Source: Escherichia coli O127:H6 str. E2348/69
GTDB lineage: Bacteria; Pseudomonadota; Gammaproteobacteria; Enterobacterales; Enterobacteriaceae
Assembly (NCBI RefSeq): GCF_000026545.1
Contig: NC_011601.1
Length of the DNA: 64,000 nucleotides
Reading direction: 5' to 3' (one strand)
Shown here: positions 24,001-27,000 of the stretch, one piece after another
Numbering within the stretch: position 1 is the first letter of the stretch
Layout of the letters: each line of letters begins with the position of its first letter
Made by a program: the position numbers

Positions 24001-27000
24001 ATGTCGCGGCTGGTGAGTAACCAGCCGCAGGGATAACAATCAGGCAACCTGTACCGGAATCGCTTTCGCGGTACGTTTCATTTCGTTGTCGCCTTCAAAA
24101 TAGGCGACGTTGGGTCGCCAGGTGCGAGCTTCTTCATCTGGCATGGTAACGAAGCTGGCGATGATGACAATATCGCCGACGCTGGCGCAGTGGGCCGCCG
24201 CACCGTTAACAGAAATAATTCTCGAACCGCGTTCTGCCGCGATGGCATAGGTGGAGAAACGCTTGCCGTTGGTGACATTCCAGATATCAATGGCTTCGTT
24301 TTCGAGAATACCGGCTGCGTCAAGAAAATCCTGATCAATGGCGCAAGAACCTTCATAGTGCAGGTCCGCATGAGTCACTTTCACGCGGTGGAGTTTGCCC
24401 TGCAGCATCGTGCGAATCATAACTTCTACCTTTCTACCCTGTCGTTAACGAAGCAGGCGATGCCTGCTTTGAGGAAATTCTCACGCAGTATTGCCCGATT
24501 TTTGTTTAGTGTCTACTCATCTGACGGCATTTGCATCAGCAGTTTGCGTACCGTGCCGAAGCGTGCCATGTAACGCCTGTAACCAATTGAAATTTATCTG
24601 AACGCTGCTCGGTAAACACTAAAGAGGCGGCTGACGACGGCACACCTTGACTGGATACTGCCTTCACGCAAGACCACACGGAAGGCAGGGAAGATGGATG
24701 CACCGAGTACCACACCGCATGATGCGGTGTTTAAACAATTTTTAATGCATGCGGAAACGGCTCGCGACTTTCTGGATATCCATTTGCCAGCGGAGCTACG
24801 CGAACTGTGTGACCTCGACACGCTGCATCTTGAGTCGGGGAGTTTTATTGAAGAAAGCCTGAAAGGGCACAGCACTGACGTGCTTTATTCCGTGCAAATG
24901 CAGGGCAACCCCGGTTATTTGCATGTGGTGATTGAACATCAAAGCAAGCCGGATAAGAAAATGGCCTTTCGCATGATGCGTTATTCTATTGCTGCCATGC
25001 ACCGGCATCTGGAGGCTGACCACGATAAGCTGCCGCTGGTGGTGCCAATTCTGTTTTATCAGGGCGAGGCCACACCTTATCCGCTATCAATGTGCTGGTT
25101 TGATATGTTTTACTCACCGGAACTGGCGCGACGCGTCTATAACAGTCCTTTCCCGCTGGTGGATATCACTATCACACCGGATGACGAAATCATGCAACAT
25201 CGGCGGATTGCGATTCTCGAACTGCTGCAAAAACATATTCGCCAGCGCGACTTAATGTTATTGCTGGAGCAACTGGTCACGCTGATTGACGAAGGGTACA
25301 CTAGCGGAAGTCAGTTAGTTGCCATGCAAAACTATATGCTGCAACGCGGTCATACTGAACAAGCGGATTTGTTTTATGGTGTGGTGAGAGACAGGGAAAC
25401 GGGAGGGGAGTCTATGATGACGCTGGCGCAGTGGTTTGAAGAGAAGGGGATTGAAAAAGGAATGGAGAAAGGGATTGAGCGGGGGATTGAGAAAGGAATG
25501 GTGAAAGGAATAGAGATAGGAATTGAGAAGGGGATTCAGCAAGGAAGACAGGAAGTAAGTCAGGAATTCGCCCTGCGTCTTCTGAGTAAAGGAATGTCTC
25601 GGGAAGACGTTGCAGAGATGGCAAATTTACCTCTTGCTGAGATTGATAAAATGATTAACTAAGTTGTCTGCATTATGAATAATTGCCTACAGATAACGTG
25701 GCAATGAATAACTGGCGCCATCAGCCGTAGCGCCAGTTAAGCATTACGCCAGTTCGACCAGTTTGTTGTCGATCAGGCGAGCATCGCCAAGCCAGGCGGC
25801 TACCAGAATCACTGCGCGTTTGCTGTTTTCAGAGACTTCCAGCAATGTGTCGGCATCACGAATCTGAATATCATCGGAACGGAAACCTTTTTCATTCAGT
25901 TCTTGCCCGGCAATAGCAATAATTTCATCGAGATCCCGTTCGCCAGCCTGCAATTTGTCGGCAATCGAACTTAAAACCTTGTACAGACCGGGCGCAATTT
26001 TGCGTTGTTCCGCCGTCAGATAACCGTTACGGGAACTCAGCGCCAGACCGTCTTTCGCACGCATAATCGGTACGCCGACAATCTCAATATCGAAGCCCAT
26101 ATCAGCAACCATTTTGCGGATCAGCGCCAGTTGCTGAAAATCTTTTTCACCGAAGCAAGCGATATCTGGCTGGACCAGGTTGAACAGCTTGCTGACAATA
26201 GTCGAAACGCCGCGAAAATGTCCCGGACGGCTGGCACCTTCCAGCATGGTGGAAAGACCGGGAACATCAACATAGGTGTGGGTTTCAGTACCGTTCGGGT
26301 AGATCTCTTTTACCGAAGGCGCGAAAACTAAATCCACTTTACGTTTGTTCAGCTTTTCGCAGTCCTCTTGCAAGGTCCGTGGATAACGTGCCAGATCTTC
26401 CGGGCGGTCAAACTGCATTGGGTTAACGAAAATACTGACGACGACCACATCGGCGCGGGCTTTGGCTTCGTCGACCAGCTTCATATGGCCGTCGTGCAGG
26501 TTACCCATGGTGGGCACCAGCGCCACGCGCTTACCTTCCATACGCAGGCGGCGAATTTGCTGACGCAGCAGCGGCAGGGTTTCGATAATTAACACAACGT
26601 CACTCCTTAATGGAAACTGTGTTCTTCGCCCGGGTAAACACCGGACTCCACTTCAGCCATATACTGCCGCACAGCCGCGCGGATGTCGCCCGTTTCGGCG
26701 AGGAAATTTTTGGCGAATTTAGGAATATGACCGCCGGTAATGCCGAACGCGTCGTGCATCACGAGAATTTGCCCGTCAGTGACGTTGCCTGCGCCAATAC
26801 CGATAACCGGGATTGCCAGTGCTTCGGTAATGCGTTTTGCCAGCTCAACCGGCACGCACTCCAGTACCAGCAGTTGTGCCCCAGCAGCTTCTAAGGCTAA
26901 TGCATCGCTGAGCAGTTGATCGCTCGCTTCATCGCCGCGCCCCTGGACTTTGTAGCCACCGAAAATATTCACTGACTGTGGGGTTAGGCCTAAATGACCA

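What the first reader, a model, noticed from the sequence alone, without database searches (positions are those of the whole stretch)
25440..25550. 12-bp tandem repeat array (GIEK-type tetrapeptide) in the Rpn-family nuclease gene
The C-terminal part of the rpnC/yadD-like ORF contains about eight consecutive 12-bp repeats encoding G-(I/M)-(E/V)-(K/R/I/Q). Such in-frame microsatellite arrays can change copy number by slippage without breaking the frame; the ORF here is 322 aa against the 300 aa I recall for K-12, which may reflect copy number or start choice. Rpn proteins are transposase-derived PD-(D/E)XK nucleases.
Basis: partly seen in the sequence, partly recalled or inferred. Interest (0 to 1): 0.35.

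Follow-up and report, generated by a model that had tools for sequence, protein, structure and literature searches.

The report
Variable four-residue repeat in rpnC
The 12-bp repeat array is real and its copy number does differ between E. coli strains, but it is the already published hypervariable "four-amino-acid repeat" of the RpnC toxin and its gene-within-gene antitoxin RpnC_S, so this is a confirmed but known feature.

Summary
Observation confirmed. rpnC (24694..25662, +, 322 aa) lies between panD and panC. It holds an in-frame 12-bp array at 25444..25563: KGIE KGME KGIE RGIE KGMV KGIE IGIE KGIQ QGRQ EVSQ. No other stretch of the 64-kb window reaches its period-12 self-identity.

The length difference from K-12 (300 aa) is copy number, not start choice. 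Both genes start at the same codon. This allele has six more units (+24 aa) and a C-terminus 2 aa shorter.

Across 22 E. coli alleles the array has 2 to 11 units. Genes almost identical outside the array differ by 7 units (10 vs 3) or by 2 units (7 vs 9).

The feature is already published (Zhong et al. 2023 PNAS, PMC10400941). rpn genes encode a toxic nuclease (Rpn_L) and, from an internal start, a small antitoxin (Rpn_S). The repeats sit in the first helix of Rpn_S. In RpnC, adding one KGIE unit abolished cognate antitoxin action.

The internal start is present here: GGGAGGGGAG then ATGATG at 25414, conserved in 22 of 22 alleles.

Points specific to this allele:
- It is among the longest found.
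- Its units are degenerate, with a 36-bp super-period.
- It is identical in 10 complete genomes.
- This strain lacks the extra downstream rpnC_Ss gene that many strains carry.

Novelty: already known. Interest is low.

The parts
24694..25662 (+). rpnC (yadD), full-length product RpnC_L, 322 aa plus stop. This is the toxic PD-(D/E)XK-type DNA endonuclease of the Rpn family.
   Evidence: ORF. TIGR01784 Rpn family scores 296 bits against a cutoff of 52.1. The gene is 100% identical to rpnC of E. coli E2348/69 and about 95% identical to K-12 rpnC. The exact protein is found on 577 contigs.
24712..25314 (+). N-terminal nuclease domain (Pfam PF04754 Transposase_31 / YhgA-like), aa 7-207. It contains D62, E81 and Q83 in ...STDVLYSV...VVIEHQS...
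   Evidence: E=2e-87, profile positions 1-201 of 203. Motif residues were read from the translation. Their catalytic role is recalled from work on RpnA and was not tested here.
25401..25410 (+). Shine-Dalgarno-like GGGAGGGGAG inside the rpnC reading frame, 3-6 nt upstream of the internal ATG ATG.
   Evidence: Sequence. It is conserved in 22 of 22 E. coli alleles, with G/A variation at single positions. An internal initiation site in K-12 rpnC was shown by ribosome profiling and SPA tagging in PMC10400941.
25414..25662 (+). rpnC_S, a gene within a gene: an 82-aa small protein (MMTLAQWFEE...KMIN) in the same frame as RpnC_L. It is the predicted cognate antitoxin.
   Evidence: In-frame ATG at 25414. 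The AF2 single-sequence model has pLDDT 90.6 with helices at residues 4-58, 63-70 and 74-81. A profile of RpnC_S-like tails matches the RpnA_S crystal structure 7TH0 at E=1.6e-6. Translation in this strain is inferred.
25444..25563 (+). The 12-bp (four-residue) repeat array, 10 units: KGIE KGME KGIE RGIE KGMV KGIE IGIE KGIQ QGRQ EVSQ. It starts at residue 11 of RpnC_S and lies entirely within predicted helix 1. It has a higher-order 36-bp period.
25564..25659 (+). Conserved C-terminal tail (FALRLLSKGMSREDVAEMANLPLAEIDKMIN), made up of the end of helix 1 plus two short helices. It is helix-turn-helix-like.
   Evidence: AF2 model. Weak sub-threshold HTH_3 and HTH_7 Pfam matches. Profile match to 7TH0 over this part. 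Foldseek gave only weak HTH-domain matches with E above 0.5.

Best explanation
The array is the hypervariable four-amino-acid-repeat segment of the RpnC toxin-antitoxin gene-within-a-gene. rpnC makes two proteins in one frame. RpnC_L (322 aa) is a DNA endonuclease that is toxic when unopposed. RpnC_S (82 aa) starts at the internal ATG at 25414 and is identical to the C-terminal tail of RpnC_L. The repeats begin 10 residues after that methionine and form most of a long first alpha-helix, the helix through which Rpn_S dimerises and binds Rpn_L. Each 12-bp unit adds four residues to the helix, about 6 Å of length and about 40° of net rotation. The number of units therefore sets the register of the S-S and S-L helix pairing, and only partners with matching arrays neutralise each other. 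Because S is read from the same DNA as L, any in-frame gain or loss changes toxin and antitoxin together. The pair stays matched while diverging from other alleles and from the extra rpnC_Ss copies. Copy number changes by gain or loss of whole 12-bp units, or of multiples (24 or 36 bp), most plausibly by replication slippage or unequal recombination between units.

Shown here: the array, its frame, the conserved internal start signal, the predicted helix, homology of the tail to RpnA_S, and fast copy-number turnover between strains.

Taken from the literature (K-12 RpnC and RpnA): translation of S, toxicity of L, and loss of neutralisation after adding one KGIE unit.

Inferred: that the E2348/69-type 10-unit allele behaves the same way, and that slippage is the mutational mechanism.
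For: - The array and frame are real and non-random.
- Family assignment: PF04754 at E=2e-87 and TIGR01784 at 296 bits.
- The locus is panD-rpnC-panC, as in K-12.
- The internal SD plus ATGATG is conserved in 22 of 22 alleles.
- The array has 2-11 units between the fixed WFEE and (F/Y)A(L/Q)R anchors, and the start codon is always the same.
- Turnover is much faster than point substitution. Window vs L005 shows 3 differences in 750 nt plus 0 in 90 nt, but 10 vs 3 units. L017 vs L018 shows 0 differences outside the array, but 7 vs 9 units.
- Every length difference is a multiple of 12 bp and no allele is frameshifted.
- The AF2 model of the 82-aa product puts the whole array in one helix, residues 4-58, at pLDDT 90.6.
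- A profile of RpnC_S-like tails hits RpnA_S (PDB 7TH0) at E=1.6e-6.
- Published experiments in PMC10400941 show: Rpn_S is translated from internal start sites in all five K-12 rpn genes; Rpn_S blocks Rpn_L toxicity and nuclease activity; the repeats begin 8-20 residues after the initiating Met, in helix 1; RpnC has the highest repeat numbers in E. coli; and RpnC_S with one added KGIE no longer counteracts RpnC_L unless L carries the same extra unit.
Against: - Nothing was measured on this allele. Translation of S, toxicity of L and length-matched specificity are extrapolated from K-12.
- The simple sigma-70 scan found no promoter-like site inside the gene, so the internal promoter reported for K-12 could not be located here.
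- The single-sequence AF2 model of the 4-unit K-12 RpnC_S does not show one continuous helix 1. It has a low-confidence coil at residues 12-20 and overall pLDDT 78, so 'units simply lengthen the helix' is supported only for the long allele.
- Foldseek did not recover 7TH0 from either model.
- This allele's units are diverged: the longest exact in-register repeat is 10 nt. The allele is also identical in 10 genomes whose flanks differ by up to 0.8%. Ongoing slippage in this particular array is therefore doubtful.
- Phage defence has been shown only for a plasmid Rpn (RpnP2), not for chromosomal RpnC. Here rpnC sits among housekeeping pan genes.
Confidence: 0.8

Rival explanations
1. The array is a neutral low-complexity insertion. 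It is a slippage-prone linker whose length is free to drift because it has no function, and strain differences reflect mutation pressure only.
For: Units are simple and purine-rich. The gene sits among housekeeping genes. No phenotype is known for chromosomal rpnC. The commonest allele has only 4 units, an estimated 37 of 59 evenly spaced records judged by match length.
Against: Adding one unit to K-12 RpnC_S or RpnC_L breaks neutralisation unless both carry it (PMC10400941). The array is predicted as a confident helix, not a disordered linker. Frame and flanking anchors are preserved in every allele seen. Comparable four-residue arrays occur at the same position in Salmonella and Klebsiella relatives and in the separate rpnC_Ss genes.
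Confidence: 0.07
2. The array is a molecular ruler for DNA recognition, as in the EcoR124I/EcoR124II HsdS TAEL repeat. It would set the distance and rotation between the nuclease domain and the C-terminal helix-turn-helix-like module (or between two such modules in a dimer), so that copy number changes which DNA sites or structures RpnC_L cuts.
For: The tail is HTH-like: weak HTH_3 and HTH_7 matches and weak Foldseek matches to DeoR and resolvase DNA-binding domains. The array is a rigid helix between the two parts. The authors themselves draw the EcoR124 analogy.
Against: All HTH matches are below threshold. No sequence specificity is known for Rpn nucleases. The only experiment on repeat number points to S-L pairing. 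This reading does not exclude the best explanation and could hold as well.
Confidence: 0.12
3. The extra units are an assembly or sequencing artefact of a repetitive stretch.
For: Short tandem repeats are sometimes mis-assembled.
Against: The identical array is present in 10 independent complete genomes, including three separate assemblies of O127:H6 / E2348/69. The exact 322-aa protein is found on 577 contigs. The units are diverged enough to assemble unambiguously.
Confidence: 0.01

Closest known systems
E. coli K-12 RpnC_L / RpnC_S (yadD), the Rpn toxin with intragenic antitoxin described by Zhong et al. 2023 (PNAS 120:e2307382120; PMC10400941)
   Same: It is the same locus (panD-rpnC-panC), with the same start codon, the same internal SD plus ATGATG, the same WFEE anchor before the array, the same KGIE-type unit and the same tail. 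It is an allele of the very gene in which the repeat effect was tested.
   Different: It has 10 units instead of 4. The units are heterogeneous (KGIE, KGME, RGIE, KGMV, IGIE) with a 36-bp super-period. The C-terminus is ...KMIN instead of ...KVINLI. There are 34 substitutions in the first 750 nt.
RpnA_S (PDB 7TH0), the crystal structure of the small antitoxin of RpnA
   Same: A profile of RpnC_S-like tails matches it at E=1.6e-6 over the region after the array. It has the same order of a long first helix followed by two short helices (paper).
   Different: K-12 RpnA_S has no expanded array. A single-sequence phmmer search did not find it, and Foldseek with the AF2 models did not find it either.
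EcoR124I / EcoR124II HsdS TAEL four-residue repeat (type I restriction specificity subunit)
   Same: It is an in-frame 12-bp repeat inside an alpha-helical spacer, and its copy number changes specificity.
   Different: There the repeat changes the length of the DNA spacer recognised (N6 vs N7). Here the only tested effect is on protein-protein matching of toxin and antitoxin. The two are not homologous.
GxxxG repeat segments of FliH/YscL and the deca-GX3 motif of Yae1/Lto1
   Same: Glycine recurs at every fourth residue in a helix used for protein-protein association. These models give the only other matches over the array.
   Different: All scores are far below the curated cut-offs: FliH 31.8 bits against a cutoff of 192, and Yae1_N 17.6 against 27.5. 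The resemblance is compositional, not homology. The alternative RQEV-type arrays in other rpnC alleles have no glycine.
Contingency loci (phase-variable simple sequence repeats in Haemophilus, Neisseria and Campylobacter)
   Same: Tandem repeats inside a coding region with strain-to-strain copy-number variation.
   Different: Contingency repeats have units of 1-7 bp that shift the frame and switch the gene on or off. Here the unit is 12 bp, every allele stays in frame, and the change alters specificity rather than expression.

Membership tests
Rpn (YhgA-like) recombination-promoting nuclease family | N-terminal PF04754 / TIGR01784 domain | tested here: met
   PF04754 at E=2e-87, covering aa 7-207 and profile positions 1-201 of 203. 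TIGR01784 at 296 bits against a cutoff of 52.1.
Rpn (YhgA-like) recombination-promoting nuclease family | PD-(D/E)XK-type catalytic residues (D ... E-x-Q/K) | tested here: inconclusive
   D62, E81 and Q83 are present in ...STDVLYSV...VVIEHQS. That these are the catalytic positions rests on my recollection of RpnA mutagenesis and was not confirmed by an alignment to a characterised enzyme here.
Rpn (YhgA-like) recombination-promoting nuclease family | DNA endonuclease activity, toxicity and SOS induction | not testable with these tools
   Reported for K-12 RpnA, RpnB and RpnC in PMC10400941.
rpnC orthologue (as opposed to rpnA, B, D or E) | Position between panD and panC, and high identity to K-12 rpnC | tested here: met
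   panD lies at 24040..24420 (-) and panC at 25744..26595 (-). K-12 has the same neighbours. DNA identity to K-12 rpnC is about 95%. The window protein falls in the same 90% cluster as the K-12-length proteins named RpnC. NCBIfam has no rpnC-specific equivalog hit above its cutoff.
Rpn_L / Rpn_S gene-within-gene toxin-antitoxin | In-frame internal start with a ribosome-binding site, upstream of the variable tail | tested here: met
   GGGAGGGGAG at 25401..25410, then ATG ATG at 25414 and 25417, conserved in 22 of 22 alleles. Actual initiation was shown only in K-12 (paper).
Rpn_L / Rpn_S gene-within-gene toxin-antitoxin | Four-residue repeats that begin 8-20 residues after the Rpn_S methionine and lie within helix 1 | tested here: met
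   The first unit starts at residue 11 of RpnC_S. The array spans residues 11-50, inside predicted helix 4-58.
Rpn_L / Rpn_S gene-within-gene toxin-antitoxin | Number of repeats varies among strains of one species | tested here: met
   2-11 units in 22 E. coli alleles. Match lengths across 5,424 genomes differ in steps of 12 bp.
Rpn_L / Rpn_S gene-within-gene toxin-antitoxin | C-terminal small domain homologous to RpnA_S (three-helix, HTH-like) | tested here: met
   Profile A1 matches 7TH0_A at E=1.6e-6. The helix order fits. Fold searches were uninformative.
Rpn_L / Rpn_S gene-within-gene toxin-antitoxin | Internal promoter driving a short rpnS transcript | tested here: inconclusive
   No sigma-70 consensus match inside the gene with the simple scan. 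A transcription start site is reported for K-12 in the paper.
Rpn_L / Rpn_S gene-within-gene toxin-antitoxin | S neutralises its cognate L, with specificity set by repeat number | not testable with these tools
   Shown for K-12 RpnC with and without one KGIE unit (paper, Fig. 4D).
Anti-phage defence system | Protection against phage, or membership of a catalogued defence family | tested here: inconclusive
   PADLOC-DB v2 has no model matching the nuclease domain. Only a small 'C3a178 putative invertase' model matches the tail, at E=4e-7. The locus is not in a defence island (pan genes on both sides). Protection has been shown only for plasmid RpnP2 (paper).
Phase-variable contingency locus | Repeat unit not divisible by 3, so that copy-number change shifts the frame | tested here: not met
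   The unit is 12 bp, and all 22 alleles and all database variants remain in frame.
FliH / Yae1 GX3-repeat proteins | Score above the curated family cut-off | tested here: not met
   FliH models score at most 31.8 bits against cut-offs of 180-293. Yae1_N scores 17.6 against 27.5.

The most novel reading that the evidence does not exclude
In long alleles such as this one, specificity may be set by the order of non-identical units as well as by how many there are. The order here is KGIE-KGME-KGIE-RGIE-KGMV-KGIE-IGIE, with a 36-bp (three-unit) super-period. That would make the array a sequence 'barcode' in the pairing helix, which keeps the RpnC_L/S pairing of this allele insulated from other alleles and from free-standing RpnC_Ss of equal length. 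Such degenerate arrays would also be mutationally frozen end-states of a process that starts with perfect, slippage-prone units at the 5' end of the array. The published work tested only unit number, using one added KGIE.
Probability: 0.25. Interest if true: 0.4.

Novelty: already known. Interest (0 to 1): 0.15.

Why it matters
The feature matters biologically because one stretch of DNA encodes the matching surfaces of a toxin and its antitoxin. An in-frame repeat change therefore re-keys both together, which is a compact way to diversify a probable anti-phage system. That insight was published in 2023 for this very gene, so the finding adds a confirmation and an allele description, not a discovery.

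This check adds the following:
- The 322 vs 300 aa difference from K-12 is six repeat units, not a different start codon.
- The E2348/69-type allele is near the top of the E. coli range (10 units; the maximum seen is 11).
- Copy number can differ by 2 to 7 units between genes that are otherwise nearly identical.
- Recent expansions appear as runs of identical units at the 5' end of the array, whereas this allele's units are diverged and probably stable.

Tried and rejected
1. phmmer of the full protein and of K-12 RpnC_S against PDB sequences found no RpnA_S. phmmer of a chimeric relative, P0170, also found nothing. Only a profile of nine tails recovered 7TH0.

2. Foldseek of both AF2 models against the PDB gave only weak HTH-domain matches with E above 0.5, and 7TH0 was not listed. 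This says nothing for or against membership.

3. The short-protein database search returned mostly fragments and was of little use for a census. The full-length search collapses most E. coli alleles into one 90% cluster of 4,509 members, so a true count of unit numbers was not possible. I used evenly spaced rows of the BLAST ranking instead, which gives only an estimate.

4. The promoter scan found nothing inside the gene.

5. The paper's supplementary alignments are not held. I could not check whether this exact allele is shown there, and 'E2348' does not occur in the main text.

6. ORFs on the opposite strand across the array (25315..25542 and 25412..25624, minus strand) were considered and dropped. 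They are mirror images of a purine-rich repeat and have no independent support.

7. FliH and Yae1 homology was rejected because the scores are far below the cut-offs.

8. A comparison of the two AF2 models to show 'helix lengthening' was inconclusive, because the K-12 single-sequence model is of low confidence in the array.
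Full report
**What is there**

The window matches E. coli E2348/69 at 100% over this gene. An ORF at 24694..25662 (+, 322 aa) lies between panD (24040..24420, -) and panC (25744..26595, -). It carries Pfam PF04754 (YhgA-like 'Transposase_31') over aa 7-207 at E=2e-87. It also matches the NCBIfam Rpn subfamily model TIGR01784 at 296 bits against a cutoff of 52.1. RefSeq calls the gene rpnC in thousands of genomes, and K-12 has the same panD-rpnC-panC arrangement.

**The observation**

Tandem Repeats Finder reports a period-12 array at 25440..25529 with 7.5 copies, 71% matches and no indels. 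It reports the same array at periods 24 and 36, and period 36 scores best. In frame, the protein reads ...MMTLAQWFEE | KGIE KGME KGIE RGIE KGMV KGIE IGIE KGIQ QGRQ EVSQ | EFALRLLSKGMSREDVAEMANLPLAEIDKMIN. That gives eight clear units at 25444..25539 plus two degenerate ones reaching 25563.

The period-12 self-identity of 0.71 was reached by none of 20,000 mononucleotide shuffles and none of 20,000 codon shuffles. Outside 25300..25700, the best 96-nt stretch of the window reaches 0.55. In the whole window only four loci give a TRF score of 50 or more, and this is one of them.

**Copy number versus start codon**

I fetched 21 further E. coli rpnC loci chosen to span the range of match lengths. 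All begin with the same codon and the same residues, MDAPSTTPHDAV. K-12 RpnC is 300 aa and reads WFEE | KGIE KGIQ QGRQ EVSQ | EFAQ...KVINLI. The window therefore has six more units (+24 aa) and a C-terminus 2 aa shorter, which gives exactly 322 vs 300.

**Variation between strains**

The number of four-residue units between the fixed WFEE and (F/Y)A(L/Q)R anchors ranges from 2 to 11 in the 22 alleles. There are two flavours of unit. One is KG(I/M)E-type. The other is RQEV-type, for example RGRQ EGRQ EVRQ EVRQ EVRQ EVIQ EVTQ EVSQ. Database proteins show the same picture, including a variant with the same 11-unit array listed at 324 aa and at 327 aa.

Match lengths across the 5,424 genomes that have the gene differ in steps of 12 bp. 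I read 59 evenly spaced rows of the ranking and calibrated them with the loci I fetched. About 37 of the 59 have 4 units, and the rest are spread over 2, 3, 5, 6, 7, 8 and 10 units. This is an estimate from match lengths, not a count.

The exact array of the window occurs in 10 of 5,426 genomes at 100% identity, and in 2 more at 99.3%. Seven genomes carry one more unit. The exact 322-aa protein is on 577 contigs of the large protein collection.

**Rate and mode of change**

Alleles that are almost identical outside the array differ widely within it.
- Window vs L005: 3 differences in the first 750 nt and 0 in the last 90, but 10 vs 3 units.
- L017 vs L018: no differences outside the array, but 7 vs 9 units. 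The difference is two extra copies of the identical unit AAGGGAATTGAG at the 5' end.
- L003 has four identical copies of that unit in a row.

Arrays of this kind contain exact in-register repeats of 31-38 nt. The window's array has no exact in-register repeat longer than 10 nt, and that one lies at an offset of 36 nt.

The identical 10-unit allele is found in strains from a human, a monkey, a pig and water. Their flanking 3.7 kb differs from the window by 6-30 substitutions. So the locus as a whole turns over quickly, but this allele looks like an old, diverged and comparatively stable array.

Window vs L006 shows only 2 differences in the first 750 nt but a different unit flavour and tail. 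That is a mosaic allele. It fits the published remark that the N-terminal part can become fused to a downstream rpnC_Ss.

**What it is**

The feature is described in Zhong et al. 2023, PNAS 120:e2307382120 (PMC10400941). The paper reports the following.
- All five K-12 rpn genes have an internal translation start that yields a small protein, Rpn_S, identical to the C-terminal tail of the full-length Rpn_L.
- Rpn_L is a toxic DNA endonuclease, and Rpn_S binds and blocks it.
- The RpnA_S crystal structure (7TH0) is a dimer of three-helix bundles joined through the long first helix.
- RpnC has the highest repeat numbers among E. coli strains.
- Inserting one KGIE into RpnC_S abolishes its ability to counteract RpnC_L unless L carries the same insertion.
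- The authors call these 'dodecamer repeats' and leave the mechanism of expansion open.

**Tests of that reading on this sequence**

- An in-frame ATG ATG at 25414/25417 is preceded by GGGAGGGGAG at 25401..25410. This signal is conserved in all 22 alleles.
- The product would be 82 aa, and the array starts at its residue 11.
- A single-sequence AlphaFold2 model of that product is confident (pLDDT 90.6). It has helices at 4-58, 63-70 and 74-81, so the whole array lies in the first helix.
- A profile of nine RpnC_S-like tails from E. coli, Salmonella and relatives matches 7TH0 (RpnA) at E=1.6e-6. The better or comparable hits were a chain named 'CAP REPEAT' and a de novo-designed helical barrel.

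Weaker points:
- The 4-unit K-12 model is of lower confidence and does not show a continuous first helix.
- Foldseek did not retrieve 7TH0.
- No sigma-70 consensus was found inside the gene.

**Mechanism**

I commit to the published mechanism with about 0.8 confidence. The array is the length-coded, and possibly sequence-coded, pairing surface shared by toxin and antitoxin. Because both are read from the same DNA, an in-frame unit change re-keys them together.

Steps shown here: the array, the frame, the start signal, the predicted helix, homology of the tail, and rapid copy-number change.

Steps taken from K-12 experiments: translation of S, toxicity of L, and the specificity of matched repeat numbers.

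Steps inferred: that this allele behaves alike, and that slippage or unequal recombination is the mutational route.

**Rivals**

- A neutral linker is contradicted by the +1-unit experiment and by the confident helix.
- A DNA-spacing ruler, as in EcoR124I/II, is compatible with the weak HTH-like tail but untested.
- An assembly artefact is excluded.

**Comparison and membership**

The gene is a member of the Rpn family and an rpnC orthologue. Every sequence-level defining feature of the Rpn_L/Rpn_S arrangement that could be tested is met. The biochemical features could not be tested.

It is not a frame-shifting contingency locus, because the unit is 12 bp and all alleles stay in frame. The FliH and Yae1 GX3 matches over the array are far below their cut-offs and reflect composition only. 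'Transposase-derived' is not supported: the paper finds no terminal repeats, no target duplications and no evidence of transposition.

**Verdict**

Interest is low (0.15). The only unexplored angle is whether the order of non-identical units in long arrays like this one adds specificity beyond length.

Noticed in passing
L002:1714-1929, L003:1714-1911, L006:1702-1905, L017:1816-2061, L018:1840-2073; window 25663-25743: Many E. coli strains carry a free-standing second small gene (rpnC_Ss, 65-81 aa, MEIKTRRETRQTLAQWFEEKG...) between rpnC and panC. It has its own variable four-residue array (FQKG, YQEA and RQEV units). The window has only an 81-nt spacer there and lacks this gene. In some records the gene is annotated as a partial 'transposase' pseudogene or as a hypothetical protein.
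   Followed up: partly
window 24694-25662 vs L006:701-1633: Mosaic allele. L006 differs from the window at only 2 of the first 750 nt of rpnC, but it has an RQEV-type array and a different tail (6 differences in 90 nt). This suggests recombination that swaps the C-terminal module.
   Followed up: partly
window 3715-4532: A 303-bp tandem repeat with 2.7 copies and 80% matches (TRF score 999). Its consensus translates to a lipoyl-domain-like sequence (…[11 protein letters not shown]…), so it is probably the three lipoyl domains of aceF. That identification is from memory only.
   Followed up: no
window 7522-7753: A 96-bp tandem repeat with 2.4 copies and 87% matches, inside a 617-aa ORF on the minus strand (7289..9142).
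   Followed up: no
window 42532-42579: An 18-bp in-frame repeat with 2.7 copies (TTACGAAGATGACGATGA, an acidic Y-E-D-D-D-D-type run), near the 5' end of an 849-aa ORF (42437..44986, +).
   Followed up: no
window 25414-25659 (RpnC_S): The PADLOC model PDLC01084 ('C3a178, putative invertase', 90 positions) matches RpnC_S residues 6-62 at E=4e-7. No PADLOC model matches the nuclease domain. This candidate defence-associated small protein may be an unrecognised stand-alone Rpn_S.
   Followed up: no
L022-L025, about 7100-10260 (yad fimbrial genes downstream of panB): In the strains that share the 10-unit rpnC allele, several yad fimbrial genes are annotated as pseudogenes: yadL is frameshifted, a fimbrial protein gene has an internal stop, and the adhesin gene is frameshifted in two strains. 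I did not check whether the window has the same lesions.
   Followed up: no
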